From positions 666 through 64,665 of the forward strand of contig JBDRLC010000042.1 in NCBI GenBank assembly GCA_043813305.1: 64,000 nt of DNA. Reading direction: 5' to 3'. The notes under the pieces are model-generated. The model saw nothing but the letters and a program-made list of their open reading frames with translations. It ran no database searches and had not been told where the DNA came from. The DNA is from Candidatus Omnitrophota bacterium (GTDB lineage Bacteria > Omnitrophota > Gorgyraeia > Gygaellales > Profunditerraquicolaceae). The translations under genes and the position numbers were made by a program. Shown one piece after another: positions 21,411-62,620 of this stretch (position 1 is the stretch's first letter; each line of letters opens with the position of its first letter).

Positions 21411-22997
21411 CTAAAAATTCACATATTCATATGCGCCAATATCAAATCCATTACCTTGCGGCCTTATAGCACCATCAAGATCCATCACAACTATTTTCTT
21501 TACTGCCTCTGTCCCTTTATCTATGACGGGACTTTTTATTTTTAGATGTAAATCTGCCGGTGCGTTCACAAATAGAGGATTGGCATTTACTGCCTCTTTA
21601 TCAACTGCCGGTCCCCTTCCATTTCCATAATAACAGTTATGACTAATTTTTAATGAAGCTGATTCTATTTGGCTGTCTATAGAAAAATAATTACCGCCGG
21701 ACTCTCTAGTAATTATATTATTCTTTATCCACATGATTTCAGGTTTATAGGCCCCATTTCTATGAATTCCAAATACTGAAAAACCTTGCGCATTATAGAT
21801 AGTATTATTGAAAAAATACAATGAACCGGAAATCGAATAAATGCAACTGTTACCTTTAGTAACTCCTCCGGCTTCAATAATTATATTACTGTAAACATAT
21901 GCAGATGAACCGTCTGCCTGAGCGCCAAAACCCAAAGCCCTGGGTACACTCCCCTTGGAATTCATTCTTGCGTCAATTATATTGTGGTGAATAAGGATAT
22001 TTTCAAATCTGTATCCATTCTGATCAGCATAATCCTGATTTATCAATATTAACGGCCCCACCCCGACATCATTGTTGAAGATGTGATTCCAGCCGAAATC
22101 AAAATTATCAGTACCGTAGCCGATGTATAGGGGATGGTCCAGTTTGTTTCCGGAGGTAGATCCGTGTAGGGTGTTGCCATAGATCTTATCACCGTTTGAG
22201 CCTACGGGATTGATGATCGCGTAGGCATGGGTTTTAAGGCCCTCACAGTCATTGTTGATGAAGCGGTTGTTCTTGCCGCTCATGCGCGCGCATTGACGGT
22301 ATCTGGCATAGAGTTGAAATCCGGAGACTACGTAGTAGCTGCGTGAGCTGTTATACCAGTCAAAGTTACCCTCTGCTCCAGTATAGGTGTTGGCTTCAAA
22401 GCGCACGGTCTCACCCGGATAGGCTACCCAGGCGATCTCATTGTTAAGAGATCCGGAGACATTCCTGCCGAAGCTGACATTGTAGTAAGCAGTCTGATGG
22501 CCGTATCTTCCGGTGTAGGTGCCTGATCTGATGTAGCAGGTATCCCCTGCTGACATGGTATTGTAGAAGCTGGCCGGGCTCCTCCAGGGATCACTGTATG
22601 TCCCGCTTCCCGGATTACTGGGTGAATTTATGTCAACGAAGTAAATACTACCTGATCTTACGGTAAAGGGGATGGCGTTTGAGGAACCTTCGGAGGTAGT
22701 GACTACGATATTACCGGTTGTAGCACTGCTGCCTAACTGAAAGACAATCTTACTATCAGACCAAACCGGATAATTATCTACCTGGCCCCCACCTACGGTT
22801 ACATAAGAGCTTCCCCGCGATGCACTGAAGTTCTTACCGGAGATAGTTACAAAGACACCCTTGTTACTTACACCGCCTGTATTAGGACCTGAGGTGAGAT
22901 CAGAGTAAAAAATTGCGGGCTCTGCCGCAAAGCAGAAGCTGCTTGTAAGCTTAATAAAAAACATAATTAATAGAATTTTAGGAAGTAGGAAACGCAT
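21411..22997 (-). CDS. Exported IPT + right-handed beta-helix protein (polysaccharide lyase/hydrolase-like fold)
   Basis: Signal peptide; near-identical to the N-terminal module of 9330-13595; ends DIGAYEY. Confidence 0.85.
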   Translation of the reverse strand: MRFLLPKILLIMFFIKLTSSFCFAAEPAIFYSDLTSGPNTGGVSNKGVFVTISGKNFSASRGSSYVTVGGGQVDNYPVWSDSKIVFQLGSSATTGNIVVTTSEGSSNAIPFTVRSGSIYFVDINSPSNPGSGTYSDPWRSPASFYNTMSAGDTCYIRSGTYTGRYGHQTAYYNVSFGRNVSGSLNNEIAWVAYPGETVRFEANTYTGAEGNFDWYNSSRSYYVVSGFQLYARYRQCARMSGKNNRFINNDCEGLKTHAYAIINPVGSNGDKIYGNTLHGSTSGNKLDHPLYIGYGTDNFDFGWNHIFNNDVGVGPLILINQDYADQNGYRFENILIHHNIIDARMNSKGSVPRALGFGAQADGSSAYVYSNIIIEAGGVTKGNSCIYSISGSLYFFNNTIYNAQGFSVFGIHRNGAYKPEIMWIKNNIITRESGGNYFSIDSQIESASLKISHNCYYGNGRGPAVDKEAVNANPLFVNAPADLHLKIKSPVIDKGTEAVKKIVVMDLDGAIRPQGNGFDIGAYEYVNF

Positions 22998-23613
22998 ATT
23001 TCGTAATTAAAGGTGCTGCCTCTTCAATAAACTCTTTAAGTATCATCGTCGTTTCTTCGCTACTCTCTTTAGTCGACGCAGAAAACCTGATTAGGGCGCT
23101 GGTATTACGGCCAAACTTCAATTTATTCAGCATATTCTGCCAGCGCATCGCCATGTAGCTTGAGGTCTTCATATTCTCGGTTTCAAAATAATAAATTACC
23201 ACCTGATTGCCCTTATCACCCTTCAAGACGAATTTATTGGCATAGAAATCTTCACCGGGGATACTTATCCTCATCTTATCCTTGTCAGTGATAAAGGAGC
23301 CCTGTCCTATAGAGCAGCTCTCCGGAAGATGTAATGCCACGCGGCTCTCTTTATAATATACAAGGGAGATCCAGACTGATTTATCTGCTTTTTTGTATTC
23401 TCTGATTAAAACTGACTCTGTCTCCAGGATCTCCTTTACATTATTCTCAATCTTCTCCTCTCTTCCGACCCAGCCCCTGACATTTAAAGGAATACCCGTA
23501 ATATTTACCTCTGCCTGCTTTCCAGCCTGACGGCTCCTGAATAGACTGATCGCCAGCAGAGATAAGACTAATATCGCAACCAGAATAATATACCTTAACC
23601 TGAATCCTTGCAT
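22978..23613 (-). CDS. epsI: EpsI-family exosortase-associated protein
   Basis: N-terminal TM, IPLNVRGW.G, REY, HLPESCSIGQG, YYF, ALIRFS; directly after exosortase. Confidence 0.85.
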   Translation of the reverse strand: MQGFRLRYIILVAILVLSLLAISLFRSRQAGKQAEVNITGIPLNVRGWVGREEKIENNVKEILETESVLIREYKKADKSVWISLVYYKESRVALHLPESCSIGQGSFITDKDKMRISIPGEDFYANKFVLKGDKGNQVVIYYFETENMKTSSYMAMRWQNMLNKLKFGRNTSALIRFSASTKESSEETTMILKEFIEEAAPLITKYAFPTS

Positions 23614-24428
23614 TGAAATACCCCCCATAACAACCATAAACCTACGAATGCGATTGCGAACATAAGGAATCCTGAGAAGTCATGAATAAAACCCTTGGTT
23701 GTCTCAGGTCCGTAAATATATAAAACCAGGCTTAATAGCAGGACTCTGCTTATGTTTGCGATTAAAGCAATCGGGATGGTACACAAAAATAAGGCAATTC
23801 TCTTTATAGCCTTTTCCTTAAGCAGATATGCGAATATACTCCCCAGGGCCAACATCACGATCAGAGAACGCAGGCCGCTGCAGGGATTCTCAACTACCAT
23901 CGTCCCGTTCGGGAAGAAGACCTCAAAACCTTCATTTCTTACCGGAAAATTTAAGGCGCTCTGTAAAACAAATACCACACATCTGGTAACAAAGAGTTTC
24001 ATCGGAAAACTGATCGCATTTATCGCCACTAAGGGCAGAGGAAACATAAAGATCAGAAAGGATAATGGAAAGAGAATCTTTTTGGTAATATTCCTTCCGA
24101 AAAGGAATAAACTGATCCCGAAGACCAACATTAAGATGGAGAATCCGCTGACAAAGAAAACCTCAAGCATTATGCTCAGGAAATGAATCATTAAAGAAAT
24201 GATAATCAGGCTCAGGCCGAGGCGGCTAAACTCCCACTTCTTACCCTTAAGCTCATCTCGTTTCAACCAGATCAATACTCCCGTAACTAAGGGCACCAGG
24301 AAGCCGTGCGAATAATAGGTGTCGGCTGCCGTGTATCGTTCAAATAACCAAAGGAATGTTGAGCGGTAGATGAGAATTACCGGGAATAGAATTAAACCAA
24401 TCGCTAAAAATATCATTTTCTTCTTCAT
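23595..24428 (-). CDS. xrt: Exosortase (EpsH family)
   Basis: YYSHGFLVP, catalytic PCSGLR, ANISR, FIHDFSG; multiple TMs. Confidence 0.95.
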   Translation of the reverse strand: MKKKMIFLAIGLILFPVILIYRSTFLWLFERYTAADTYYSHGFLVPLVTGVLIWLKRDELKGKKWEFSRLGLSLIIISLMIHFLSIMLEVFFVSGFSILMLVFGISLFLFGRNITKKILFPLSFLIFMFPLPLVAINAISFPMKLFVTRCVVFVLQSALNFPVRNEGFEVFFPNGTMVVENPCSGLRSLIVMLALGSIFAYLLKEKAIKRIALFLCTIPIALIANISRVLLLSLVLYIYGPETTKGFIHDFSGFLMFAIAFVGLWLLWGVFQCKDSG

Positions 24429-24434
24429 CTATGA

Positions 24435-25568
24435 TTACCTCAAAGGCTTCCAGGCAACCTGTTTTTCACCGCGAAGGAATTCCAAAAGCCCGGTTAATAA
24501 TGCAAAATTGGTGATGCAAAAGTAAAATGGAACATACAATACCCTGTTTTTTGCCTTGAGAAACCAACCCGTGAATGCACTGAGATAAAAGGAGATCTGC
24601 AGGAATAAGGATAACTTATATATCAATTCCGGCCTGGAAAGGAACAGGGCTATATTCACTAAAAATAATCCTAAAAGAAAAATAGGGATTAAATACCTTA
24701 ATACCTTATGCGATAATAACTGCATAGCAAAAAAACCGTATTTAAATGGATTCAATAAAAACCTCATATACCAAATTCCGTGGATCGTCCTGGTTGCTAC
24801 GCGCACCCTCATCTTAAACTCCTCTTTGGGATTGGTATTCCCCGTCTCATAAGAGATTGCCTCGGGTTCATAGACCACCCTCTTACCCTTTTTGTAAATC
24901 ATCTGTGCTATTACGAAATCGCTGATAATATCGGATTTTATCGGTTCATACAGCTGCTTGCGCACCGCATAACAGCAACCGCTTACACCGATTAGGGAAG
25001 TGATCAGGTTCTCCCGCTTCTTCAAAAACTTCTCATATTCCCAGTAAATCTCTCCTGTTCTACCTACTAAGCTATTGCTTTTATTTACATATGCCAGCTC
25101 CCCACCGACGCCTCCGACACTGGGATCAGCAAAATTAGAGAGGATTTTTTTGAGTAAACGCTTTTCGTAGATTGTCGTGGCGTCAGAAAAAAGCAGAATC
25201 TCTCCTCCTGCTTTCGTTACCGCTTCATTTTGAACGAATGTTTTCCCAAGGCGCTCCTTAAAACTAATCAGTTTTACGCCCTGATCCTTAAAATCCCGGA
25301 CGAATTCATTGGTTCGGTCAGTGGAAGCGTCAGAAGCAACGATAATTTCTAATTTCTCTTTGGGATAGTCTAATGCGATTGTATTTTTGAGCTTCTCCTT
25401 TATGCTCTTCTCCTCATTATGTGCGGCGATAATTATGCTTACCGAGGGAAAGATCTCCTTTTTCTCTATCTTCTTTTTCGTAAGCTTTGAGGCAATAATT
25501 AAAGTAAGCGGATAGCCGAAATATGTATAGATAATTAACCCTGCTAAAACCCAAAAAATGACCGTCAT
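24435..25568 (-). CDS. Membrane GT2 (CESA-like)
   Basis: YFGYP, IIAAHNEE, SDASTD, FSDA, YWEYE, C-terminal TMs. Confidence 0.9.
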   Translation of the reverse strand: MTVIFWVLAGLIIYTYFGYPLTLIIASKLTKKKIEKKEIFPSVSIIIAAHNEEKSIKEKLKNTIALDYPKEKLEIIVASDASTDRTNEFVRDFKDQGVKLISFKERLGKTFVQNEAVTKAGGEILLFSDATTIYEKRLLKKILSNFADPSVGGVGGELAYVNKSNSLVGRTGEIYWEYEKFLKKRENLITSLIGVSGCCYAVRKQLYEPIKSDIISDFVIAQMIYKKGKRVVYEPEAISYETGNTNPKEEFKMRVRVATRTIHGIWYMRFLLNPFKYGFFAMQLLSHKVLRYLIPIFLLGLFLVNIALFLSRPELIYKLSLFLQISFYLSAFTGWFLKAKNRVLYVPFYFCITNFALLTGLLEFLRGEKQVAWKPLR

Positions 25569-26350
25569 TTCTTACCTCTTAATTTAAAATATTTATTCCA
25601 TAAATGGTAATATCTTCGCGCTCCAATAATCTTTTTCGCGATCAGCTTAAGGTAGTAATTCACGGTATTTAGATTAGAGATAAACGAATCATTGTTCACG
25701 ATTCCTCTAAACCTTTCTAAAGAAGTCCTTTGCATAATAGCTATTCTAGAAAAGACATTTCTCCTCTTAAGGCTAAGGGGATTCCTGCCTGGTTTTGAAA
25801 CAAAAACATACTCATAGCCAACTTCATCGGCGATCTTCTTTATTTTCCTACTATAATCTCCTCCGGGTAAGGATAAACTTACGGCCGGCGTGTTTAATTT
25901 GCCTTCTATGGTCTTCTTGGAGATAGCCAGTTCCCCTCTAATCATATCCTCCTTAAGCAGGCTGATATAATTTGGGTGTGTATGGGTATGGGACTCTATC
26001 TTATTACCCTCCCGCTGCAATTCAAGGATCTGTCCCCAATCCATATAACCATCTTTTGCCACCTGGTCAGTATTAACAAAAAATGTAGCCTTAAAACCGT
26101 ATTTCTTCAATATTGGATAAGCCTCGGTGTAATCTGTAACGCAGCCGTCGTCAAATGTAATCATGATGATCTTTTTATATTCCCCTTCCCCTAAATCCGG
26201 GATGTCATCGGTGGTCAAGCTCTTAAAACCCTGCTCATGGAGATACTGCATCTGTTTATAAAAATCCTCAGAGGAGACTGTATAATTCTCGGCTCCCTTG
26301 TTCTTGCTTATACGGTGATACATTAGAACCGGTAAAAAGAGATCAGCCAT
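25565..26350 (-). CDS. Polysaccharide deacetylase (NodB/CE4)
   Basis: LMYH, ITFDDG, SHTHTH, SLPGG. Confidence 0.9.
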   Translation of the reverse strand: MADLFLPVLMYHRISKNKGAENYTVSSEDFYKQMQYLHEQGFKSLTTDDIPDLGEGEYKKIIMITFDDGCVTDYTEAYPILKKYGFKATFFVNTDQVAKDGYMDWGQILELQREGNKIESHTHTHPNYISLLKEDMIRGELAISKKTIEGKLNTPAVSLSLPGGDYSRKIKKIADEVGYEYVFVSKPGRNPLSLKRRNVFSRIAIMQRTSLERFRGIVNNDSFISNLNTVNYYLKLIAKKIIGARRYYHLWNKYFKLRGKK

Positions 26351-26355
26351 CTGGA

Positions 26356-28602
26356 CTACATGCTCCTATATAACTTAGCAGTCTCCTCTGCGATATTATC
26401 CCAGGAGAATTTACTCTTTGCCAAGTCTAGCGCATATCTACCCATTCGTTCCTGTAGGGGGTAATCAGCTAAGACCCTGGTTATCCGATCGGCTAAGGCA
26501 TCTACATTCTTAGCCGGAACAATAAAGCCGCTCTGCCCCTCTTCGATTGCTTCGCCGAGCCCACCTACATTTGTAGCAACTACCGGCCTGCCAAAGCCAT
26601 AGGCAAGCTGAAGGATGCCGCTTTGATAAACAGAAAGATACGGTAAAACCACTACATTTGCCTTATGAAAATAATCTTTTACCTGTGTAAAATTAATATA
26701 ATTAAGATTTAACTCAATATTCTTCTTCAGTCCTAATTCATTAATTTGTCTACGGTAATCCTTGAAATCCTCAATTGCCTTACCGACAATATGCAATCTT
26801 GCCTGCGGCATCCTCTCCTTAATGCTTTTAAAAGCCCGAATAAGATAACCCAGGCCCTTGTATTTGCGGATATAACCAAAGAATAATATATTAAACGAAT
26901 TCTGCGGCCTGACAAAATTACCATTATTATCATTGAAGAACAGATAATTTCCGTGAGGGATAACGCTTATTTTACGGGCAGGTATCAAATATTTACTCCT
27001 TAATTCTTCTCTATTAGCCTGCGCATGCACAACTACTCTATCTGCCAAAGAATAGAGTCTTCTATATAGGTAATAGTCCCCCCGCTTCTTTTCATGCGAG
27101 GAAAGATTATGAGCGGTAATCACTATTCGTTTATCGCTAAATACCTTGGCTAAATAGCATAATAAAAGGATAAACAGAGGGTATTGACTTAACTGAAACT
27201 GAATAATACTAACCTTTTGATGCCGGAAGATTTTTATTAATCTGAAAATAAATAGTGGATTTGTTTTAAAACGATTGAATAAACCTATCAACTCAAAGTT
27301 TCTCTGACTGTTTTTAAGTTCATAATCTATGCTGGTTACCAGGGAAACCTCAAGGAGATTAGAAAGCCTCTGAGCTAAATTATAGGTATAGTGACAGATT
27401 CCTCCTTTGCCTGCTATTTCAACCTGAATTACCCTCCTCTTCTCGCTCAGGCGCCCTCCATTGTTTATCTTAAAGGAGTTATAGATCCTGATATATTCTT
27501 CAACCATCTTGCGCGCTGAAAATCCACCCCTTACTCTTTCGCAGGCGCGGCTGGCTAAAGAACGAGCCCTATCCTTATGATTAACTAATTGAATCACCGC
27601 TTCTGATAGAGCCTTTGCATCTTTTGGTTTGATTAATAGGCCATTGTCCCGATCGATAACCCTTGCTATGTCTCCTACATCTGTGGCGACAATCGGTTTC
27701 TTTGCAGCCATCGCCTCTAATAAAGAGAGGGGCATGGCTTCTTCTAGAGAAGGTAAAACAAATATGTCAAATAATCCCAGCATCCGGGGGATATCACTCC
27801 TCATTCCGGTAAATATAACATTCCTCTCCAAAACCAGACTCCTCACCGTCAACTCCAAATCTCTGCGTAACTCTCCCTCTCCTACTATAAATAGCTTAGT
27901 ATTTGGATATGCGGATAATACCTGCTTAAATGCCTCTAATAAATAAAGGTGGCCTTTTTCTCGGGAGAGACGACCGATCGTCCCGATGACTAATTCATCT
28001 TCTCTGAGGCTAAATTCTTGTCTGAGATCTGAGATCTCCGACTGCTTCTGGACATGATTAATTTCAAAGCAATCCGGGTCAATACCATTATAGATAACCG
28101 ATACACCCAGGGCGCTGATTCTGCTGTTTATGATCTCCTGCTTTAATATATTAGAAACTGTGACAACGCTAGTAAACCTTCTTAGCAACAACTTATCTAT
28201 TTTTTCATAGATCCTCATCTTGATATTTCTACTAAGCCAATTGTGACAGGTTGCGATTTTCGCGGTATTTAGTCCAAGGCTGGAGAAGAAACCATAAAAA
28301 TTTGATTTATAACCATGAGAGTGGATAATCTTTATTTTATTTGCTTTGACAAATCTCCTTATAGAGAGAATCGTGGAGAAGTCAAATCTGCCTCTACAGG
28401 GAAAACTCAGAACTTCCAATCCGCTCTCTTTTGCCTTCTGCTTAAGTGCACTGTTGGAGCTGCTATTGCTTGAATCTTCAATTATTCCTATATAAGGAAT
28501 ATATCCGTCAGAGGCTAGCCCTTGGGATAGCGTCAGCATTGCATGTTCAGCGCCGTAAAAACCGGTGCTGCTGATTAGTTGTAATACTCTCATCGGAATC
28601 AT
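26356..28602 (-). CDS. Tandem GT4-GT4 fusion glycosyltransferase
   Basis: Two GT-B units: GRLSREKG...EAMPLSLLEAMA and FGYIRKYKG...QSGILQLAYG. Confidence 0.9.
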   Translation of the reverse strand: MIPMRVLQLISSTGFYGAEHAMLTLSQGLASDGYIPYIGIIEDSSNSSSNSALKQKAKESGLEVLSFPCRGRFDFSTILSIRRFVKANKIKIIHSHGYKSNFYGFFSSLGLNTAKIATCHNWLSRNIKMRIYEKIDKLLLRRFTSVVTVSNILKQEIINSRISALGVSVIYNGIDPDCFEINHVQKQSEISDLRQEFSLREDELVIGTIGRLSREKGHLYLLEAFKQVLSAYPNTKLFIVGEGELRRDLELTVRSLVLERNVIFTGMRSDIPRMLGLFDIFVLPSLEEAMPLSLLEAMAAKKPIVATDVGDIARVIDRDNGLLIKPKDAKALSEAVIQLVNHKDRARSLASRACERVRGGFSARKMVEEYIRIYNSFKINNGGRLSEKRRVIQVEIAGKGGICHYTYNLAQRLSNLLEVSLVTSIDYELKNSQRNFELIGLFNRFKTNPLFIFRLIKIFRHQKVSIIQFQLSQYPLFILLLCYLAKVFSDKRIVITAHNLSSHEKKRGDYYLYRRLYSLADRVVVHAQANREELRSKYLIPARKISVIPHGNYLFFNDNNGNFVRPQNSFNILFFGYIRKYKGLGYLIRAFKSIKERMPQARLHIVGKAIEDFKDYRRQINELGLKKNIELNLNYINFTQVKDYFHKANVVVLPYLSVYQSGILQLAYGFGRPVVATNVGGLGEAIEEGQSGFIVPAKNVDALADRITRVLADYPLQERMGRYALDLAKSKFSWDNIAEETAKLYRSM

Positions 28603-29909
28603 CTCTTCTGCTTTGCGTTGTTTTTGCTTAAAAGTTCCTCTCGGTTAATAATATTGCCTCTGACTACAAGAGCAAGTAATACCCAGAAAAAAGTGCCGAT
28701 CTGTAAATAGGTCCAACGGTCTCCGAAAAAGTTTGTAAACATCATAGAGACAACGCATGCGATGAAGCCCAAACCTAATCCTTTCAAGAAACTGTCTGAC
28801 GAAGAAATATAGAGCCGCCAGCCTGACCTGATCGCCAAAAGCAGTAAGCTAATAAAAATGATGAAGCCGATCATCCCCTGTTCCACCAGTATTTTTAAAT
28901 AGATATTGTGCGTATCAGCAAAACCTCCCGCCAAACCCAAATATGGCACTGTATTAAAACCGACACCGGCGATGGTATTATCCTGGAAGAGCTCAACACT
29001 CTCCTTCCACAAATCTATTCTTCTTTGGGCCGATGTCTCCAATTCCCCTTCCTCGGTTTTAGTTTGACTGATCCTTTCTACAACGCTAGGCGGCAGGAGG
29101 GATTGCCAAAATACCAAAAGCAATACTAAGGGGACAATTAATGATCTTTTTCTAAGTATGCTGATTACCAAAAAACCTGCCAATAGGCCAAAATATGCTC
29201 CTCTGGAAAATAAAAAGAGACATATATATAAGCCAAATGCTGCCAAAACGCCAAAGAGTATTCTCAGTAATTTCTTTTTATATGTGAGAAATAAGCCGAA
29301 AAATACAAATATATACTGAGCATAAAAGGCTGCCACCACATTCACACCCGTCCAGACAAAAGTCCCGTGTATCTTCTCCCGGGAAACCAAGAGATTCGGA
29401 AACCATTTCAACTGACCGCCGGTATAACGGTTCATAATAAGCACTGAAAAAGCCATGGCCAGAACTAACCACTTTATATGTTTCAAGCTTCGGATATTAT
29501 TAACTGTAACAAAATACAGCAGCGGAAAAATCATATAGTTCTTCCAGGCATGGAAACGTGGATCACCCAGGTTTAGGGGAGGAGCAAAACCTAAATAGGA
29601 AGATCCGCGCCAAAGAGAAAGATAAGTAAAAAGAATCATCACCAATATCAGCTTATTGAATGGCGTCTTTTCAAAAATACTTCGATTTCGTAACATCGAG
29701 CCGAATCCCCAGCCTAAAACAATAATCACAAGCAGGATATCTACAAAATCTTTACCGGAAGGAAATTGGTGTAATCGCTCAATTATATTTTGCAAAGGAA
29801 ACAGCGGCACTAAAAACATCAGACTCAGGTATACTCTGCCGGTTAAGGAGAAAATCAGTACCGCTGCTATACCGCCAAAGAATATTGCCGAAGCAACTAA
29901 ATCAATCAT
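28599..29909 (-). CDS. O-antigen ligase/Wzy-like polymerase
   Basis: Many TMs, FSRGA, R..LW, GVGF, THNIYL...EQG. Confidence 0.85.
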   Translation of the reverse strand: MIDLVASAIFFGGIAAVLIFSLTGRVYLSLMFLVPLFPLQNIIERLHQFPSGKDFVDILLVIIVLGWGFGSMLRNRSIFEKTPFNKLILVMILFTYLSLWRGSSYLGFAPPLNLGDPRFHAWKNYMIFPLLYFVTVNNIRSLKHIKWLVLAMAFSVLIMNRYTGGQLKWFPNLLVSREKIHGTFVWTGVNVVAAFYAQYIFVFFGLFLTYKKKLLRILFGVLAAFGLYICLFLFSRGAYFGLLAGFLVISILRKRSLIVPLVLLLVFWQSLLPPSVVERISQTKTEEGELETSAQRRIDLWKESVELFQDNTIAGVGFNTVPYLGLAGGFADTHNIYLKILVEQGMIGFIIFISLLLLAIRSGWRLYISSSDSFLKGLGLGFIACVVSMMFTNFFGDRWTYLQIGTFFWVLLALVVRGNIINREELLSKNNAKQKR

Positions 29910-49389: not shown

Positions 49390-50574
49390 TTATATACCAC
49401 CTGAATGCGCAAAAGTTAGCCGGGAGTAAAGCTTCTCGAATCTCTCGCTCAGCTTCTGGGAAGAGTATTGATTCTCCATCTTCTCACGAGCCTTACGGCC
49501 TAGAGAATCACGCAATGCTGAATTTCCAATTAAATTCCTTATATGCTTAATAAACAGATCATCTACTCCGGGCGTAATCATCATTTCTTTCTGATCAACA
49601 AAATCCAGCCCCTCTACCCCCTTAGCTGTAGTTACAATCGGCCGGGAACAGGCGGCTGACTCGAGAATCTTAACTCGAATACCTGAGCCTAAATCTAAGG
49701 GAACTAAGATTATGTCTGAAGCAGAGATGGCATCTAAATAAGGCTGACCATGAAGATAACCTGTAAAAATCATCTTCTCCTTTTTATACTTTAAAACGTA
49801 TTGAGCATTGCGACCAACTATGAGGAATTTAGTATCGGGGTAATCTTTTATAATCGCTGGATAAATAACCTCGGAGATCTTCCTTACTGCCTCAATATTG
49901 GGAACTGTTTCAAAGGTGCCCATAAAACTTAAAATTATCTCCTTATCCTGCACTCCATATCGTTCTCTGAATGCCGAGCGCCCCTCTGGGGTGAATTTAA
50001 ATTTATTTAAATCTTGGCAGGGAGGGATCACCTCTATCTTCTCCTCAGGGATACCTAGTAACTCTACATGCTGTCTTTTGTCAACTTCTGACAACGTCAC
50101 AACTCTATCAGCCAGCCTGCAAGCGAACCTCTCTATCTGCTTTAGAGGAAGAGTGATATACCATTTTCTTCCCATATCTCTAAATTTGGAGTACTCACAA
50201 TTATGGTTATAAAAAACCAGCGGTTTCTTGAATTTCATCTTCATCAGAATCCCTGCGAATACTGAATATATGGTCTCGCACTGAATTAGATCACAATGAG
50301 AATCTCTCATCATCCGTTCAGCTGCTTTGAAATACAGGGGATTGAAGAGGAGTGAAGGCATTTTCAGGCGATCTAATATTGACCGTGGACAATATTCCAC
50401 AGAGATGCCTTCCTGGGCAGGACTGCCGTTTGTGTTCTGCGAATGAATACGAGTCAGCAAAAGGTGTATACGGTTATCACTGGAGATGCATTTTAGAAGA
50501 TCGTAAACTAACCTCCCTGATCCGTGAAAGGGTGGAAATATATCGAACGGAACTAAAAGTAATATTTTTCTCAT
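49390..50574 (-). CDS. Glycosyltransferase family 4
   Basis: PP.HG, HNCE, GSGIRVKILE. Confidence 0.88.
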   Translation of the reverse strand: MRKILLLVPFDIFPPFHGSGRLVYDLLKCISSDNRIHLLLTRIHSQNTNGSPAQEGISVEYCPRSILDRLKMPSLLFNPLYFKAAERMMRDSHCDLIQCETIYSVFAGILMKMKFKKPLVFYNHNCEYSKFRDMGRKWYITLPLKQIERFACRLADRVVTLSEVDKRQHVELLGIPEEKIEVIPPCQDLNKFKFTPEGRSAFRERYGVQDKEIILSFMGTFETVPNIEAVRKISEVIYPAIIKDYPDTKFLIVGRNAQYVLKYKKEKMIFTGYLHGQPYLDAISASDIILVPLDLGSGIRVKILESAACSRPIVTTAKGVEGLDFVDQKEMMITPGVDDLFIKHIRNLIGNSALRDSLGRKAREKMENQYSSQKLSERFEKLYSRLTFAHSGGI

Positions 50575-50583
50575 ATCCTATCA

Positions 50584-54115: not shown

Positions 54116-55438
54116 TTATAATCTCCAATATAATAATCCTGAGTCCTGTAATAACTCTTGATCAAAAGAACCTTTGACGTCGACTACCACACCGCCGGTA
54201 TGATTATTCTTTAGATGTCTTTTTAGATTAGTGATTGTCAGGTCTCTTTTAAATATATCGTGACTTACGGCGATTACTATTGCATCTGATTTAAGATTAG
54301 GCTTATATTCGGTTAATTTAATACCATATTCCTTCTTTACTGATTTTTTGTCGGCTAAAGGATCGCAGACAACTACGTTAACTCCGTAGTCTTTAAGCTC
54401 TTTTATGATATCGATTACCCGGGAGTTGCGTATATCGCTGATGTTTTCTTTAAAGGTAATCCCCATCACCATTACCTTGGCTCCCTTTACCCTCTTCTTT
54501 GCTTCGATCAAAAGCTTGACCGTCTCCTGAGCAATAAACCGGCCCATATTGTCGTTGATTCTGCGTCCTGCCAGGATAACCTGAGGATGGTAACCGATCT
54601 CCTCTGCTTTAAAGGTAAGATAATAGGGATCGACTCCTATACAGTGACCGCCGACAAGCCCGGGAAACATCTTGATAAAGTTCCATTTAGTTCCTGCTGC
54701 CTTGAGAACCGACAAGGTATCGATTCCCATCTTATTGAAAATTATCGCTAACTCGTTTATCAGGGCGATATTCAGATCCCTTTGAGTATTTTCTATTACC
54801 TTGGCTGCCTCGGCACACTTAATTGAGCGGGCCTTGAACACGCCTGCTTTTACAATCAAGCCGTAAACCTTGGCAATCTCATCGAGAGCTGCTTTATCGC
54901 ATGCGGAGACAACCTTAATTACATCTTTAATACTGTGGATCTTATCTCCCGGGTTAATCCGCTCCGGTGAATACCCGACTTTAAAATCCTTCCCGAATTT
55001 GAGCCTCGAATTTCTTTCTATGATCGGCACACAGATATCTTCTGTAACCCCGGGGTATACTGTTGACTCAAAAACAACCATACTCCCTCTGGATAGATTC
55101 CTTCCCACTATCTCTGAAGCGCCGGTTAAATGAGTTAGGTCGGGTTGTTTATTCTTGGATATCGGCGTAGGCACAGCAACTATAATAAACCTTGCTTCTT
55201 TGAGTCTTTTAGGATTTGAGGTAACCTCAAAATAGGAAGCGGATTTAATCTCTGATCGCTTTAGTTCATGATTAGTATCTGTGTATCTCTTTAGACTAGA
55301 GATGCGCTTCTTATTTAAATCAAATCCTAGCGTCCTTGCAACCTTTCCGAATTCAACTGCCAAGGGAAGACCAACGTAACCAAGGCCGATGATTGCAATC
55401 TTCTCCTTTTTGGACTTGATCTGATTATAGAGACCCAT
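54116..55438 (-). CDS. UDP-N-acetylhexosamine 6-dehydrogenase (WbpO/TviB family)
   Basis: [40 protein letters not shown]. Confidence 0.92.
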
Positions 55439-55508
55439 ATCTTTACCTTTCTATTGATTAAGGTTTATAGGGTTTAAGGTGAATCTTAGGCTGAGTCCTA
55501 GTCCTGGC

Positions 55509-55739
55509 TTATTTTTTCTTCTTTCTGATCAACAATCCTGTAGCTAAACCAGCTAATCCTAAACCAAGGATGGCTACTGTAGCCGGCTCAGGAATAACGG
55601 TCACGACCCCTGTAGGAGTCTCGCCGCCATTGCCACCGCCACCACCACCACCCAATGCTGCAAAGCCTGAGCCGCCTCCGCCGCCATCACAACCGGCGAG
55701 CGCGACTAAGGTGATCAGAATAAATAGTAACTTTCGCAT
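55509..55739 (-). CDS. 76-aa lipoprotein/PEP-CTERM micro-protein (second copy)
   Basis: ATG 55739 after AGGAGAGG: MRKLLFILITLVALAG-C17, poly-Gly linker, IPEPATVAILGLGLAGLATGLLIRKKKK. Confidence 0.85.
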   Translation of the reverse strand: MRKLLFILITLVALAGCDGGGGGSGFAALGGGGGGGNGGETPTGVVTVIPEPATVAILGLGLAGLATGLLIRKKKK

Positions 55740-55758
55740 CTCTTCCTCTCCTTTTTTC

Positions 55759-56727
55759 TTAGTCAACTTTTTTCTCTTTAAAATACTCAACCGTTCTCTT
55801 TAGGCCTTCCTGAAAACGAACCTGAGGAGTAAATTTTAATGTTTTCTTGATCCGCGAGATATCTGCGCAGGTACGAAAGACATCACCCGGACGGGGATCT
55901 AAAAATGCCGGTTTTATATTCTTGTTGATAATCTTATTTAGTGAATCTACTAATTCTAATACTCTATGGTCCCTTCCGTTAGCAACGTTAAGGATTACGT
56001 GCTTTACCCCGGGAGTTTGCGCGGATAAAATATTCGCCTCAACCACGTTATCAATATAAGTAAAATCCCTCGACTGCTTACCAGTACCAAAAATAGGCGG
56101 TTGCTCGTCTCCTAGAATACAATCGATGAATTTAGGAATTACCACTGCATATTCATCATCCAAAGCCTGCCTGGGACCAAAGACATTAAAATATCTCAGA
56201 CATACTGTTTCTAGATTAAAGTACTCTGAAAAAATACGGCAATAATACTCCCCGGTCAATTTACTCAAGGCATAGGGTGAAATCAGTAACGGATAGGCAT
56301 CTTCTTTTTCGGGAAATTTATCCGTATCCCCGTACACTGAACTTGAAGAGGCAAATACCAGACGCCTGACTTTATTCTTTGATGCTGCCTGGAGTAAAAA
56401 TAGGGTCCCGTCTATATTTACGTCATTATAACTCTCAGGGTCTTTTAGTGACTTTGGTACAGAGCGCAGAGCTGCCTGGTGTAAAATATAATCTACGCCT
56501 CGACAAGCCTGATCACAGGTATTTTTATCCCTGATATCCCCTCTGATTAATTCATAGGTATCCTTACCAAGTCCCTTGGCAAACTCCAGATTCTCCTCCT
56601 TACCGCTTGAAAAGTTATCCAAGACCCTGACAAAATGCCCATCTTTTAATAATCTCTCTGTAATATGAGAACCGATAAATCCTGCACCGCCAGTGACTAA
56701 ATAGCGCAACGACGCTCCTTTTGTCAT
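55759..56727 (-). CDS. UDP-(N-acetyl)glucosamine 4-epimerase (WbpP-like)
   Basis: TGGAGFIG, HQAAL.SVP.S, SPYALSK, YFNVFGPRQ. Confidence 0.9.
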   Translation of the reverse strand: MTKGASLRYLVTGGAGFIGSHITERLLKDGHFVRVLDNFSSGKEENLEFAKGLGKDTYELIRGDIRDKNTCDQACRGVDYILHQAALRSVPKSLKDPESYNDVNIDGTLFLLQAASKNKVRRLVFASSSSVYGDTDKFPEKEDAYPLLISPYALSKLTGEYYCRIFSEYFNLETVCLRYFNVFGPRQALDDEYAVVIPKFIDCILGDEQPPIFGTGKQSRDFTYIDNVVEANILSAQTPGVKHVILNVANGRDHRVLELVDSLNKIINKNIKPAFLDPRPGDVFRTCADISRIKKTLKFTPQVRFQEGLKRTVEYFKEKKVD

Positions 56728-57146
56728 TTATCCCCTCCGTCTAACTTATCTACTGCTATCTCCAGACTGTTCACGCGCTTGAATAGAGTATTCTTGGCTT
56801 TGCTAATATTTTCCATTGCCACTTTCTGCGCATCAAGAGCATTATTAACTTCCCTAATCTCTCTGTTAGCTTCTTCGATCTTAATATTCGTGACTTTCAG
56901 CTCTGTCTTTATTTCCCCCAATCTCTCGAAGAGTGCTTTTGTTTGAGCACCATAGCCATCTATCATCCTCTTTGTATCAGCCAACTTTGCCAAGACATCC
57001 CTTCTTTCAATGGAGTGTACCTGCATTCTCAAAAATAAAAAGTAGGTCAGTGCCGCATTCCCGGCCAGAAGCAAGATCAGGATTATCCCGATAAACCATA
57101 CCACAAAGACCCTGGAAGAATAATTCCTTATTAATCCCATGCTCAT
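56724..57146 (-). CDS. Single-TM coiled-coil protein
   Basis: One hydrophobic segment then ~90 aa of heptad pattern. Confidence 0.7.
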   Translation of the reverse strand: MSMGLIRNYSSRVFVVWFIGIILILLLAGNAALTYFLFLRMQVHSIERRDVLAKLADTKRMIDGYGAQTKALFERLGEIKTELKVTNIKIEEANREIREVNNALDAQKVAMENISKAKNTLFKRVNSLEIAVDKLDGGDK

Positions 57147-57148
57147 AG

Positions 57149-58540
57149 TTATACTCCTATCTCTTTTTTGATCTGTTCTGCTAATGAATTGGCTATATTC
57201 TCGATTAAGTTCTGATTCTTTCCTTCGACCATCACCCGTGCCAGGCGCTCGGTACCGGAATATCGTAGGAGGATCCTTCCCTGATTCTTTAGTTGTGCGG
57301 TGTACTTGCGAATCCTCTGATTAAGTAGGGGAATCTGACTAAAGGGTCTCTTCTCCCTTACTGCTACATTCACCAACACCTGCGGTAATTTAGTAATACA
57401 CCTTGAGAGTTCACCCAGAGAAGTCTTACTCTCTTTCATTACATTGAGGATCTGTAAAGCGGTAAGCAGCCCGTCAGGGGTGGATAGATAATCTAAAAAT
57501 ATGATGTGCCCTGATTGTTCCCCGCCCAGATTAAGCCGATTCTTAAGCAGTTCCTCCAAAACGAATTTATCGCCTACATTAGCGGTGATTATCTTCCCGC
57601 CGCTCTCCTCTATCGCTATTTTAAGGCCGTAATTACTCATCACGGTTGCCACAATCGCATTCCGGGGTAGTTTATTCTTTTTTAAGAGGTGCTTGGCGAT
57701 AATCGCTAAAGTATAGTCACCATCTAAAACTTCCCCTTTTTCATTGATAATGATCCCTCTGTCTCCGTCGCCGTCAACCGCTATACCGATATGCGAACGG
57801 GTTCTTTTCACCAGCGCTCTTAAGAAGCTCGGATCAATCGCCCCGCCGAGATTGATGTTATCTCCGCAGGGGTTATCGTTAATGCAAAAGACCTTTGCTC
57901 CTAAGCCACTAAATAGCCTGCTGCCAAAGGGAGACGCTGCCCCAAAGGCACAATCCAAAGCTATGCGCATACCTTTCAGACTCAGTCCACCTAAGGTTGA
58001 AGTGAGGAACTTAATGTATCTTTCTTGGGCATCTTTTATCTTTCTGAACCTGCCGGTTTTTCTCTGCGGCCGCTCTTTTAACCTGTGGGTTAAGCTGTCC
58101 AATATAATATCCTCTATTCTCGCCTCTTCTTTAGTTGAAAACTTGTGGCCTTTGGAGTTAAAGAATTTTATGCCGTTATCCGTGGCTTTATTATGTGAGG
58201 CAGAGATCATAATCCCCATATCCGCCTTCAGGTTCCTGGTTAAAAAAGACAATCCGGGTGTAGTGATTATTCCTACGGTTAATACATCTATACCCCATTT
58301 CTTAATTGCATCGGCAAGCAATCCTTCGATTTGCTGACCACTTAAACGGGTGTCTTTGCCGATGACTATTTTAGGGACAGTCCCCTTCGCTTTGCTCGGG
58401 GACAGTCCCTGTTTTATAATGAAGCGGGCGATCCCGTTTCCTATTTTTGTGATCATCTCATCGGTCAAAGGATAAACCCCGGGAGTGCCCCTTATGCCGT
58501 CTGTACCGAATAACTTTTCTCTTTTAAATCTGTTTTTCAT
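57149..58540 (-). CDS. glmM: Phosphoglucosamine mutase
   Basis: FGTDGIRG, GKDTRLSG, ISASHN, DGDGDR, GGEQSGH, RYSGTE. Confidence 0.93.
   Translation of the reverse strand: MKNRFKREKLFGTDGIRGTPGVYPLTDEMITKIGNGIARFIIKQGLSPSKAKGTVPKIVIGKDTRLSGQQIEGLLADAIKKWGIDVLTVGIITTPGLSFLTRNLKADMGIMISASHNKATDNGIKFFNSKGHKFSTKEEARIEDIILDSLTHRLKERPQRKTGRFRKIKDAQERYIKFLTSTLGGLSLKGMRIALDCAFGAASPFGSRLFSGLGAKVFCINDNPCGDNINLGGAIDPSFLRALVKRTRSHIGIAVDGDGDRGIIINEKGEVLDGDYTLAIIAKHLLKKNKLPRNAIVATVMSNYGLKIAIEESGGKIITANVGDKFVLEELLKNRLNLGGEQSGHIIFLDYLSTPDGLLTALQILNVMKESKTSLGELSRCITKLPQVLVNVAVREKRPFSQIPLLNQRIRKYTAQLKNQGRILLRYSGTERLARVMVEGKNQNLIENIANSLAEQIKKEIGV
58373..58410. repeat. REP-like double palindrome inside glmM
   Basis: AGGGACAGTCCCC-12 nt-GGGGACAGTCCCT. 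Confidence 0.7.
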
Positions 58541-62603: not shown

Positions 62604-62620
62604 AGCAACTTCCATGCCAA
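62604..62620 (-). promoter_or_regulatory. Sigma54 promoter of the EPS operon
   Basis: TTGGCATGGAAGTTGCT, GG-N10-GC. Confidence 0.82.

What the first reader, a model, noticed from the sequence alone, without database searches (positions are those of the whole stretch)
55509..55739. Second, independent lipo-PEP-CTERM micro-protein of identical length inside the EPS operon
Seen: also exactly 76 aa with Cys at position 17 (ALAG-C). Its 32-aa linker is poly-Gly rather than Ser-rich, followed by IPEP-TM-RKKKK. It sits 49 kb from the first copy, between two nucleotide-sugar genes. Inference: linker sequence has diverged while architecture and spacer length (32 vs 34 aa) are kept, suggesting a selected 'molecular ruler' tether family. 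Each of two sigma54 operons of the system carries one.
Basis: partly seen in the sequence, partly recalled or inferred. Interest (0 to 1): 0.8.

Follow-up and report, generated by a model that had tools for sequence, protein, structure and literature searches.

The report
Tiny lipid-anchored exosortase substrate protein
This is a real gene for a 76-residue protein with a lipid-attachment signal at one end and an exosortase sorting signal at the other, one of a large unnamed family in the slime-synthesis loci of Omnitrophota bacteria, but its spacer length is not a conserved 'ruler'.

Summary
Window 55509-55739 (minus strand) encodes 76 aa: a signal peptide ending in the lipobox LAGC (Cys17), a 32-aa Gly-rich coil, then VIPEP, a membrane helix and RKKKK. 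The tail scores above the curated PEP-CTERM cut-offs. The gene lies between TviC-like and TviB-like nucleotide-sugar genes in a ~55-kb exosortase/EPS cluster of a Candidatus Omnitrophota MAG.

It is not independent of the copy at 6476-6706: the two are paralogues (43% identity). Both belong to a large uncurated family. A profile search gave 4,993 representatives, and the best hits are almost all 75-122-aa proteins with the same lipobox, Gly/Ser coil and (H)NPEP tail.

Family members co-occur with exosortase. They recur in two gene contexts, after the priming sugar transferase and beside the TviC-like epimerase, which match the window's two copies.

The 'molecular ruler' idea fails its own test. 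Cys-to-PEP spacing runs 30-81 aa (median 45-49), and the window's copies are at the short extreme. The shared length of 76 aa is coincidence.

Most likely the product is a minimal substrate of both Lgt/LspA and exosortase: a roughly 33-aa lipid-anchored flexible peptide joined at its C-terminus to surface or EPS material. That function is inferred, not shown.

The parts
55509..55739 (-). Target gene: a 76-aa lipobox + PEP-CTERM micro-protein, stop codon included
   Evidence: ORF and sequence. TIGR02595 and PF07589 score above cut-off. A syntenic homologue on contig C52 keeps the frame, with 25 synonymous against 22 non-synonymous codon differences.
55689..55739 (-). Residues 1-17: signal peptide (MRK, then a hydrophobic core) ending in the lipobox L-A-G-C, with Cys17 as the predicted lipidation site
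   Evidence: Read from the sequence. The AF2 model gives a helix at 2-17. PF08139 scores only 14.7 bits, under its cut-off of 20. Lgt and LspA are present in the genome.
55593..55688 (-). Residues 18-49: a 32-aa Gly-rich linker with no predicted fold
   Evidence: AF2 gives coil at 18-51 with block pLDDT 49-65. The ESM Atlas model has mean pLDDT 0.52. The target is one of 2 of 126 family linkers with Gly at 45% or more.
55512..55592 (-). Residues 50-76: PEP motif, transmembrane helix and RKKKK (the PEP-CTERM sorting domain)
   Evidence: AF2 gives a helix at 52-75. Against the C52 copy this part has 12 synonymous and 4 non-synonymous codon differences.
55740..55751 (-). Purine-rich ribosome-binding stretch (GGAGAGGAAGAG on the minus strand) directly before the ATG
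   Evidence: Read.
6476..6706 (-). Paralogue (copy 1): 76 aa, I-A-G-C lipobox, Ser-rich 34-aa linker, N-P-E-P. Its ATG overlaps the stop of the sugar transferase (TAATG).
6706..7641 (-). Priming polyprenyl glycosylphosphotransferase with an internal PEP-CTERM-like module (residues ~90-116) ahead of the catalytic domain
   Evidence: PF02397 229 bits and TIGR03025 297.3 bits. TIGR02595 scores 14.8 bits, under its cut-off of 16. The motif is conserved in 5 of 5 homologues whose alignment reaches it.
4984..6450 (-). Two larger PEP-CTERM proteins (5785-6450, 221 aa; 4984-5604, 206 aa) downstream of copy 1
   Evidence: TIGR02595 scores 22.3 and 24.9 bits.
55759..56727 (-). TviC-like NAD-dependent sugar epimerase. 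Its stop lies 19 nt before the target's ATG.
   Evidence: NF011728 scores 246.5 bits, below the equivalog cut-off of 760, so the assignment is at family level only.
54116..55438 (-). TviB-like nucleotide-sugar dehydrogenase, starting 70 nt after the target's stop
   Evidence: TIGR03026 scores 372.7 bits (cut-off 189.8). NF011729 scores 494.3 bits, under its cut-off of 592.
23595..24428 (-). Exosortase, the only one found in the genome
   Evidence: PF09721 scores 201.5 bits. TIGR02602 scores 154.2 bits (cut-off 105.55). The XrtA model TIGR03109 scores 160.5 bits, under its cut-off of 208.
22978..23637 (-). EpsI-family exosortase-associated protein
   Evidence: TIGR02914 scores 80.8 bits (cut-off 42.8).
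62605..62619 (-). Sigma-54-type -24/-12 match upstream of the wza-like gene that heads the gene string containing the target
   Evidence: No terminator-like site was found on the minus strand in 55200-56000 or 61400-63000.
25565..29909 (-). Polysaccharide deacetylase (25565-26350), a double GT4 glycosyltransferase, and an O-antigen-ligase-like protein (28599-29909). These are candidate partners in the inferred mechanism.
   Evidence: TIGR03097 scores 76.7 bits, under its cut-off of 188.1.

Best explanation
The ORF is a real gene for a pre-pro-lipopeptide, a minimal double-signal surface protein.

Shown here:
- It has a lipoprotein-type signal peptide (lipobox Cys17), a structure-less Gly-rich spacer and a PEP-CTERM exosortase sorting domain.
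- It belongs to a large, uncurated family of 75-130-aa proteins of Candidatus Omnitrophota.
- Family members co-occur with exosortase and sit inside exosortase/EPS loci.
- Spacer length in the family is free to vary from 30 to 81 aa, so it is not a ruler.

Inferred from the established roles of Lgt/LspA and the proposed role of exosortases:
- After Sec export, Cys17 is diacylglycerol-modified and the signal peptide is removed.
- The exosortase (23595-24428) cuts at the PEP motif, removes the C-terminal helix and transfers the new C-terminus to an acceptor.
- The product would be a lipid-anchored, flexible peptide of about 33 residues whose far end is joined to surface or EPS material. This would be a covalent membrane-to-matrix tether or anchor made together with the polysaccharide.
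- The acceptor is unknown. A free amine on de-N-acetylated polysaccharide is one candidate, and a lipid, as with archaeosortase, is another.
For: Gene reality:
- HMM scores are above the curated cut-offs, and the ATG has a ribosome-binding stretch.
- A syntenic homologue on contig C52 (GlmM, 138-aa ORF, epimerase, micro-gene, dehydrogenase) has flanks at 73% nucleotide identity. It keeps the frame with one 3-nt indel, and in the PEP-CTERM part shows 12 synonymous against 4 non-synonymous codon differences.

Family:
- A profile of 7 sequences searched against 1.84 billion representatives gave 4,993 hits at E<=1e-3 and 125 at E<=1e-10. Of the best 150, 127 are 135 aa or shorter, and 124 of those 127 have a lipobox Cys plus a PxP tail.
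- The family consensus is [LIV][AST]GC followed by a Gly run (104 of 124), a linker that is 24% Ser and 24% Gly, and H-N-P-E-P (44 of 124).

No folded domain: AF2 with 103 sequences gives helix 2-17, coil 18-51 and helix 52-75.

Link to exosortase:
- All 15 genomes with a full-length member listed in the phylum sample are among the 83 of 301 that have PF09721. In 9 of the 15 the two genes are within about 6 kb.
- In 30 further loci, exosortase and/or EpsI lies within about 5 kb in 16, the priming sugar transferase in 12 and a TviC-like gene in 6. In the first 15 loci the counts were sugar transferase 8 and TviC-like 2.

Pathway present: Lgt and LspA are found in G000, with one exosortase plus EpsI in the window.

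Spacer rather than glycan carrier: the target has only 4 Ser/Thr in 32 linker residues and is among 6 of 126 members with S+T at 15% or less. Flexibility, not Ser content, is what the family shares.

Literature: exosortase is proposed as a Cys/Arg/His endopeptidase or transpeptidase. Archaeosortase ArtA removes the C-terminal helix and a lipid is attached (passages of 10.1101/2023.06.07.544157). PEP-CTERM proteins are tied to EPS loci and sigma-54 (PMC1569441, passages and section 5).
Against: - There is no expression or protein evidence; no sequencing run was listed.
- Lipidation and exosortase cleavage are inferred from motifs only, and no signal-peptide predictor was available. The lipoprotein-site model PF08139 is under its cut-off (14.7 against 20).
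- Lnt was not found in the 86%-complete genome, and the LolCE-like match is under its cut-off (338 against 362 bits).
- The acceptor of exosortase transfer is unknown for any PEP-CTERM protein, so 'tether to EPS' is a model.
- The exact TviC-micro-TviB arrangement was not seen elsewhere. Only 1 of 22 TviB-like loci examined had a family member within 4 kb upstream, and there it was not adjacent.
- Only about 15 of 83 exosortase-positive genomes in the sample show a full-length member, so the protein is not a universal part of the system.
- Asp at +2 after Cys occurs in the target and C52 but in only 3 of 124 in the family. In E. coli, from recall, this would mean inner-membrane retention, which fits a surface tether poorly if the rule applied here.
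Confidence: 0.6

Rival explanations
1. Molecular ruler: the Cys-to-PEP spacer is held at about 32-34 residues to set a fixed distance between the membrane and the attached layer.
For: The two window copies have linkers of 32 and 34 aa, and the C52 copy has 31. In the only other genome seen with two copies (G163), both linkers are 37 aa although the proteins share only 41 of 82 residues. Random family pairs differ by 2 or less in 25 of 210 cases.
Against: - Across the family the linker runs 31-71 aa (sd 7.1; n=124-126). In genome-derived members it runs 30-81 aa (median 49; 49 rows after two doubtful ones of the 51 were dropped by hand).
- Within each gene context it also varies. TviC-context linkers are 32, 31, 50, 58 and 60. 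Sugar-transferase-context linkers are 34, 37, 41, 53, 42, 39, 30, 58 and 56.
- The spacer is a Gly/Ser coil with no predicted structure, so it cannot fix a distance the way a rigid coiled coil does.
- Low-complexity repeats change length easily.
- Paralogues within one genome share descent, so similar lengths are expected.
Confidence: 0.07
2. Glycan carrier: the linker is an O-glycosylation substrate, a mucin-like lipoglycopeptide. The polysaccharide or oligosaccharide is built on or ligated to its Ser/Thr by the O-antigen-ligase-like enzyme of the locus. Exosortase only frees it from the inner membrane.
For: - Family linkers have a median of 31% Ser+Thr.
- PEP-CTERM proteins are generally enriched in Ser/Thr/Asn, and glycosylation has been proposed (PMC1569441 section 5; passages).
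- The window encodes an O-antigen-ligase-like protein (TIGR03097 76.7 bits, under its cut-off of 188.1) and many glycosyltransferases.
- Copy 1 is translationally coupled to the priming sugar transferase.
Against: - The target has only 4 Ser/Thr in 32 linker residues and is 53% Gly. Six of 126 members have S+T at 15% or less, so a Ser-rich acceptor is not a family constant.
- No glycosylation evidence exists for any member.
- This model is not exclusive of the tether model.
Confidence: 0.15
3. Doubly lipidated peptide: by analogy with archaeosortase and rhombosortase substrates, the exosortase replaces the C-terminal helix with a lipid. This would give a short peptide with lipid at both ends that loops on, or bridges, membranes.
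For: ArtA-dependent removal of the C-terminal helix with lipid attachment, and anchoring-moiety attachment after rhombosortase, are reported (passages of 10.1101/2023.06.07.544157). The protein has nothing but two anchors and a coil.
Against: No lipid acceptor is known for exosortases. The tight association with EPS genes rather than lipid genes points to polysaccharide. This is pure analogy.
Confidence: 0.08
4. Accessory or regulatory substrate: the micro-protein occupies or primes the exosortase, or the PEP-tagged priming sugar transferase. It would then act as a cofactor, competitor or assembly factor rather than a structural product.
For: The conserved module is sugar transferase (with an internal PEP-like motif), PEP-CTERM protein, micro-gene, PEP-CTERM protein. 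It is duplicated in tandem in G163. Copy 1 is translationally coupled to the transferase.
Against: No binding or regulatory evidence exists. The linker is highly variable and low in complexity, which is unlike a specific interaction surface. The target copy is not next to the transferase.
Confidence: 0.07
5. Not a functional gene: a chance ORF, or a remnant of a larger PEP-CTERM protein.
For: The ORF is small and of low complexity, and an antisense 77-aa ORF also exists. One relative (G243) has an in-frame TAA.
Against: There are thousands of full-length small homologues with the same three parts. Frame and synteny are conserved at 73% nucleotide identity, with an excess of synonymous change in the tail. 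The ATG has a ribosome-binding stretch. HMM scores are above cut-off. The long hits match only through their own C-terminal tails (24 of 150).
Confidence: 0.03

Closest known systems
PEP-CTERM/exosortase substrates (TIGR02595, PF07589), e.g. the flocculation protein PepA (NF033554)
   Same: A C-terminal PEP motif, membrane helix and basic cluster at the extreme C-terminus, above the curated cut-offs. An N-terminal signal peptide. The gene lies in an EPS locus with exosortase, EpsI, a chain-length determinant, a PEP-CTERM-system ATPase and a tyrosine kinase. There is a sigma-54-type promoter match and an NtrC-type regulator in the window.
   Different: Described PEP-CTERM proteins are mostly 200 aa or more and are poor in Cys (0.4%; PMC1569441 section 5). 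Here there is no passenger domain at all, and the signal peptide is of the lipoprotein type. PepA's own model scores 16 bits against a cut-off of 80. No NCBIfam or Pfam model specific to this architecture matched any of 103 members.
Braun's lipoprotein Lpp of E. coli (recalled, not searched)
   Same: It works alike in outline. Lpp is a very small lipoprotein whose N-terminus is lipid-anchored and whose C-terminus is covalently joined by a transpeptidase to an extracytoplasmic polymer.
   Different: There is no sequence relation. Lpp is a rigid trimeric coiled coil linked through a C-terminal Lys to peptidoglycan by L,D-transpeptidases. This protein is an unstructured Gly/Ser coil with a PEP-CTERM signal, and its length varies 2.7-fold across the family.
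Archaeosortase (PGF-CTERM) and rhombosortase (GlyGly-CTERM) substrates
   Same: The same tripartite C-terminal signal logic. The sorting enzyme removes the helix and an anchoring moiety is attached (passages of 10.1101/2023.06.07.544157).
   Different: Different motif, enzyme subfamily and organisms. Those substrates are large proteins without an N-terminal lipobox.

Membership tests
PEP-CTERM sorting-domain proteins (TIGR02595 / PF07589) | PEP motif + transmembrane helix + basic cluster scoring above the curated cut-off | tested here: met
   TIGR02595 scores 24.6 bits (cut-off 16) and PF07589 scores 26.1 bits (cut-off 20.7).
PEP-CTERM sorting-domain proteins (TIGR02595 / PF07589) | Domain at the extreme C-terminus | tested here: met
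   The match runs over residues 49-76 of 76.
PEP-CTERM sorting-domain proteins (TIGR02595 / PF07589) | N-terminal signal peptide | tested here: met
   MRK, a hydrophobic core and a lipobox are read from the sequence. The AF2 model gives a helix at 2-17. No dedicated signal-peptide predictor was available.
PEP-CTERM sorting-domain proteins (TIGR02595 / PF07589) | Exosortase encoded in the same genome | tested here: met
   PF09721 scores 201.5 bits at window 23595-24428. All 15 genomes with a full-length family member also have exosortase.
PEP-CTERM sorting-domain proteins (TIGR02595 / PF07589) | Cleavage or transfer by exosortase | not testable with these tools
   This needs biochemistry.
Bacterial lipoproteins (Lgt/LspA substrates) | Lipobox [LVI][ASTVI][GAS]C at the end of the hydrophobic core | tested here: inconclusive
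   L-A-G-C with Cys17 fits the rule, and the Cys is invariant in 103 aligned members. However, PF08139 scores 14.7 bits, under its cut-off of 20.
Bacterial lipoproteins (Lgt/LspA substrates) | Lgt and signal peptidase II present in the genome | tested here: met
   PF01790 scores 200.5 bits and PF01252 scores 139.5 bits, in adjacent genes on contig C59. Lnt was not found in the 86%-complete genome.
Bacterial lipoproteins (Lgt/LspA substrates) | Acylation of the Cys | not testable with these tools
   This needs labelling or mass spectrometry.
XrtA (exosortase A) system | Exosortase reaching the XrtA model cut-off | tested here: not met
   TIGR03109 scores 160.5 bits against a cut-off of 208. The general exosortase model TIGR02602 is met (154.2 against 105.55). 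Several XrtA-system accessory models score just under their cut-offs (TIGR03015 311.8/324.5, TIGR03007 238.9/278.85).
PepA flocculation protein (NF033554) | Full-length match above cut-off | tested here: not met
   16 bits against a cut-off of 80, matching the tail only.
   31-71 aa in the representatives and 30-81 aa in genome-derived members.
   The model shows coil with pLDDT 49-65 over residues 18-51, and the linker is 53% Gly.

The most novel reading that the evidence does not exclude
These micro-proteins are the missing covalent link between the cell envelope and the exosortase-associated matrix. Lgt lipidates the N-terminus. The exosortase then trans-peptidates the PEP-end onto free amines of the de-N-acetylated polysaccharide made by the same locus. 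The result would be a lipid-peptide-polysaccharide conjugate, an Lpp-like anchor for EPS. Spacer length would be tuned per organism rather than per family, since copies within one genome match to within 0-2 residues in the two genomes that have two. As natural substrates of about 33 residues, they would also be the most tractable objects for finding out what exosortases attach proteins to.
Probability: 0.12. Interest if true: 0.8.

Novelty: new variant of a known kind. Interest (0 to 1): 0.45.

Why it matters
What exosortases do with their substrates is still open: the cleavage site, the acceptor, and whether the step is a transpeptidation (passages). This family is the smallest natural substrate imaginable. 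It consists of two sorting signals and a 30-80-residue coil, is encoded next to the exosortase and the priming sugar transferase, and is abundant in metagenomes (4,993 representative clusters). A mature product of about 33 residues can be analysed whole by mass spectrometry, so the chemistry of both ends could be read directly.

For annotation, the family is currently named only 'hypothetical protein' or 'PEP-CTERM sorting domain-containing protein', and no dedicated model exists in the libraries searched. The practical lesson for the scan is that equal lengths of two paralogues do not make a ruler.

Tried and rejected
- **Related loci by the micro-protein.** The search for related loci with the 7-sequence alignment gave an error because no stretch was conserved enough. 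With the 3-sequence alignment it matched 600 stretches but tblastn confirmed none.
- **Single-sequence homologue search.** It found only 3 proteins. The profile searches were needed.
- **Synteny through the TviB-like neighbour.** Of 22 loci examined, only L036 held a family member within 4 kb upstream, and it was not adjacent. Four other regex hits in that scan were judged false by eye. The exact TviC-micro-TviB order is therefore not widely conserved, although adjacency to a TviC-like gene recurs (2 of 15 loci; 6 of 30, one of them the same record as L036).
- **Sequencing runs.** None was listed for window 55300-57200.
- **ESM Atlas.** The nearest clusters are 83-88-aa PF07589 proteins labelled Thermodesulfobacteriota on 4-7 members, with scores of 0.92-0.93 and 150-155 shared features. 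This is only a lead that the family may reach beyond Omnitrophota. I could not check their lipoboxes. The structure rows are meaningless for a coil.
- **Dedicated curated family.** None was found. Of 103 members scanned against NCBIfam, 89 hit TIGR02595 and the rest of the list is tails of other PEP-CTERM families. 'lipo-invert' NF058595 hit 5 of 103 weakly.
- **Literature.** Full-text searches were PEP-CTERM+lipoprotein+exosortase (11 papers), PEP-CTERM+Omnitroph (1), PEP-CTERM+lipobox (3) and exosortase+XrtA+PEP-CTERM (6). By title and abstract start, none listed a paper on lipobox-bearing PEP-CTERM micro-proteins. I read passages and section 5 of PMC1569441 and passages of 10.1101/2023.06.07.544157. 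PMC9850573 was seen only in the listing. Supplements were closed, and subscription journals are not covered, so 'not described' is limited to these searches.
- **Remnant-of-larger-protein idea.** Rejected. The 24 long hits match through their own tails only.
- **Within-genome length matching.** It could not be extended. In 401 class-level genomes, only G000 and G163 showed two full-length copies.
- **Complex prediction.** Complex prediction was not used, because an enzyme-substrate pair is a poor use of the job.
Full report
**What is there**

On the minus strand, an ATG at 55739 opens a 76-codon frame that stops at 55509-55511. The ATG is preceded by the purine-rich stretch GGAGAGGAAGAG. The product has three parts:
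- Residues 1-17 are a signal peptide: MRK, a hydrophobic core and the lipobox L-A-G-C, with Cys at position 17.
- Residues 18-49 are a 32-residue linker with 17 Gly and only 4 Ser/Thr.
- Residues 50-76 are P-E-P, a hydrophobic helix and RKKKK.

The tail scores above the curated thresholds of both PEP-CTERM models: TIGR02595 24.6 bits against 16, and PF07589 26.1 bits against 20.7. The lipoprotein-site model PF08139 is below threshold (14.7 against 20), so the lipobox rests on the sequence rule and on family conservation.

An AlphaFold2 model built with 103 homologues gives helix 2-17, coil 18-51 (pLDDT 49-65) and helix 52-75. There is no folded passenger domain.

**Surroundings**

The window comes from a 1.25-Mb, 65-contig genome that is 86% complete with 6.5% contamination. 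Its nearest TviB-like loci are titled Candidatus Omnitrophota.

From about 62300 down to about 5000, nearly every gene is on the minus strand and belongs to one very large exosortase/EPS cluster. In order along the minus strand:
- A wza-like exporter, a chain-length determinant, the PEP-CTERM-system ATPase, a tyrosine kinase and GlmM.
- A 140-aa ORF with no family match.
- The TviC-like epimerase, the target, and the TviB-like dehydrogenase.
- Glycosyltransferases, two radical-SAM enzymes and an acetyltransferase.
- A Wzx-type flippase and an ABC-2/Wzt exporter.
- An O-antigen-ligase-like protein and a polysaccharide deacetylase.
- The exosortase (23595-24428) and EpsI.
- Giant surface proteins.
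- The priming sugar transferase (6706-7641), copy 1, and two 206-221-aa PEP-CTERM proteins.

An NtrC-type sigma-54 activator and a histidine kinase end the window.

The target's ATG is 19 nt after the epimerase stop. No terminator-like site lies on its strand, so it is most likely co-transcribed. A good sigma-54 -24/-12 match lies upstream of the wza-like gene (62605-62619), and a weaker one lies at the start of the sugar transferase (7631-7645). Such matches are not enriched in the window overall.

**Is it a real gene?**

A 3.6-kb contig of the same bin (C52) carries the same gene order: GlmM, a 138-aa ORF, the epimerase, the micro-gene and the dehydrogenase. Its flanking genes are 73% identical to the window at the nucleotide level. 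C52 is either a second locus or a contig from a related organism in the bin.

Its micro-gene is 75 aa and 71% identical in protein. It differs by one 3-nt indel. Codon differences are 25 synonymous against 22 non-synonymous overall, and 12 against 4 in the PEP-CTERM part. This is the pattern of a translated, constrained gene.

**Relation of the two window copies**

They align end to end at 43% identity (E = 5e-8 for the single comparison) and share a small S-G-F motif in the linker. They are paralogues, not independent inventions.

**The family**

- A profile of seven sequences (three from this genome, four from relatives found) was searched against 1.84 billion representative proteins. It gave 4,993 hits at E<=1e-3 and 125 at E<=1e-10.
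- Of the best 150, 127 are 135 aa or shorter, and 124 of these have a lipobox Cys and a PxP tail. The other 24 are long proteins that match only through their own PEP-CTERM tails.
- The family consensus is [LIV][AST]GC and then a Gly run (104 of 124), followed by a linker of 24% Ser and 24% Gly, and then H-N-P-E-P (44 of 124).
- About 30% of members (38 of 126) also carry a small-aliphatic-Phe triplet, mostly 8-15 residues after the Cys.
- Sources name members 'hypothetical protein' or 'PEP-CTERM sorting domain-containing protein', and every organism name seen was Omnitrophota/Omnitrophica.
- No NCBIfam model specific to the architecture matched any of 103 members. The two window copies hit only PF07589 above cut-off in Pfam.

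**Distribution and context**

- In 301 genomes sampled across the phylum, 76 had any match to the profile, mostly PEP-CTERM tails. At least 15 had a full-length small member (150 further rows were not listed). All 15 are among the 83 genomes with an exosortase, and in 9 the two genes lie within about 6 kb.
- In 401 genomes of the class, 57 had a match at E<=1e-9.
- I fetched 45 loci. In the first 15, a homologue of the priming sugar transferase lay just upstream in 8 and a TviC-like epimerase in 2.
- In 30 further loci, exosortase and/or EpsI lay within about 5 kb in 16, the sugar transferase in 12, a TviC-like gene (at least 47% identity) in 6, and none of these in 8.
- The window's two copies therefore represent the family's two recurrent contexts.
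- In G163 a four-gene module (sugar transferase, PEP-CTERM protein, micro-gene, PEP-CTERM protein) is duplicated in tandem right after the exosortase and EpsI.
- The exact TviC-micro-TviB order of the target was seen only in this genome's two contigs.

**The ruler test**

- Cys-to-PEP spacing is 31-71 aa (median 45-45.5, sd 7.1) in the 124-126 representatives. This sample is biased towards the profile's own length.
- In genome-derived members it is 16-81 aa (median 49, sd 11.1) over 51 parsed rows. After I dropped two doubtful rows by hand it is 30-81 aa with median 49.
- Only 6 of those 49 are 34 aa or shorter, and three of the six are this genome's. Only 4 of 124 representatives are that short.
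- Lengths also vary within each gene context.
- The spacer is an unstructured Gly/Ser coil.

The shared total of 76 aa is coincidence: the linkers are 32 and 34 aa and the tails differ.

One residue of the idea remains. The only two genomes with two copies have linkers that differ by 2 aa (G000) and 0 aa (G163, 37 and 37, with 41 of 82 residues identical). Random family pairs are that close in 25 of 210 cases. With two genomes, and with paralogues sharing descent, this is a hint and no more.

**How it most likely works**

Shown: the three-part anatomy, the family, the co-occurrence and linkage with exosortase and EPS genes, and the presence of Lgt and LspA in the genome. Lnt was not found and the LolCE-like match is under its cut-off.

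Inferred:
- Sec export is followed by diacylglycerol transfer to Cys17 and cleavage by signal peptidase II.
- The PEP motif sits at the outer face of the inner membrane, where the exosortase cuts it and passes the new C-terminus to an acceptor. Exosortase is a proposed Cys/Arg/His endopeptidase or transpeptidase. Its archaeal homologue removes the helix, and a lipid is attached (passages).
- The product would be a lipid-anchored flexible peptide of about 33 residues, joined at its far end to surface material.
- Because the gene is embedded among sugar-nucleotide and EPS-assembly genes, I favour the polysaccharide or matrix as the partner. This would be a covalent membrane-to-matrix tether, working in outline like Braun's lipoprotein (recalled) but flexible and of free length.
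- The deacetylase of the locus could supply amine acceptors. This is speculation.

The target is an outlier in composition. It is one of 2 of 126 members with a linker that is at least 45% Gly, and one of 6 of 126 with Ser+Thr at 15% or less. That argues flexibility, rather than a Ser-rich glycosylation platform, is the shared requirement.

Two smaller features stand out:
- The target has Asp at +2, which is rare in the family (3 of 124).
- It has Val-Ile before PEP instead of the usual Asn (Asn in 38 of 49, by eye). The three Val-Ile cases are the target, C52 and G269, and all three lie next to a TviC-like gene.

**Comparison and novelty**

The protein is a member of the PEP-CTERM domain class and sits in an exosortase locus. 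The exosortase is XrtA-like but under the XrtA cut-off. The protein is not a member of any named PEP-CTERM protein family.

The combination of a lipobox with a PEP-CTERM tail and nothing in between, as a conserved and abundant family tied to the exosortase and the priming transferase, did not appear in the libraries or in the papers I could search. I rate it a new variant of a known kind, of moderate interest. The ruler claim that made the finding look striking is refuted. The family would, however, be a useful minimal substrate for working out exosortase chemistry.

**Limits**

- There are no expression data and no signal-peptide predictor was available.
- All function is inferred.
- Family counts rest on regular-expression parsing of lipobox and PEP positions.
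- Genome samples are of related, often incomplete MAGs.

Noticed in passing
window 6706-7641 (-), residues ~90-116; also L065, L067, L069, L070, L073: The priming polyprenyl glycosylphosphotransferase carries an internal PEP-CTERM-like module ahead of its catalytic domain: R-A-P-E-P-S-T, then a helix, then basic residues. TIGR02595 scores 14.8 bits against a cut-off of 16. The motif is conserved in 5 of 5 Omnitrophota homologues whose alignment reaches it, and each of these lies just upstream of a micro-gene. This suggests the transferase itself docks to, or is cut by, the exosortase.
   Followed up: partly
G000 contig C52 (L011), 3574 bp: A second, syntenic copy of the stretch from GlmM to the dehydrogenase, with its own 75-aa micro-gene, at about 73% nucleotide identity to the window. 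It may be a paralogous locus or a contig of a related organism in the bin, which has 6.5% contamination.
   Followed up: partly
L093 = G163:C1:155500-169000: Downstream of the exosortase and EpsI, the module of sugar transferase, PEP-CTERM protein, micro-gene and PEP-CTERM protein is duplicated in tandem. It is followed by seven more PEP-CTERM genes.
   Followed up: partly
L100 = G344:C59:1-2921: The micro-gene's frame runs on without a stop into the signal peptide of the next PEP-CTERM gene, giving an open frame of 310 aa. This is either a natural fusion or an assembly error.
   Followed up: no
L074 = G243:C10, around 50519-50770: A family member with an in-frame TAA in its linker. It is probably a pseudogene or a sequencing error.
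   Followed up: no
window 21330-21344 (-) and 46239-46253 (-): Two further strong sigma-54-type -24/-12 matches (TGGCACGATTTATGC and TGGCACCCTGATTGC). The first lies just inside the annotated GTG start of the 1452-aa ORF and the second inside the flippase gene.
   Followed up: no
window 9330-13643 (-) and 17005-21363 (-): Two giant surface proteins (1437 and 1452 aa). The first has a CFI-box-CTERM domain (100.1 bits, cut-off 40) and a choice-of-anchor Q match, so a second C-terminal sorting signal type is present beside PEP-CTERM in one locus.
   Followed up: no
window 56724-57146 (-): A 140-aa ORF between GlmM and the epimerase with no Pfam or NCBIfam match. It is conserved as a 138-aa ORF in the same position on C52.
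   Followed up: no
window 38005-40023 (-) and 46025-47527 (-): Both an ABC-2/Wzt-type exporter pair and a Wzx-type flippase lie in the same gene string. The cluster may therefore make two polymers or combine two pathways.
   Followed up: no
window 55570-55803 (+): A 77-aa Pro-rich ORF antisense to the target. It is the mirror image of the Gly codons and is not supported as a gene.
   Followed up: no
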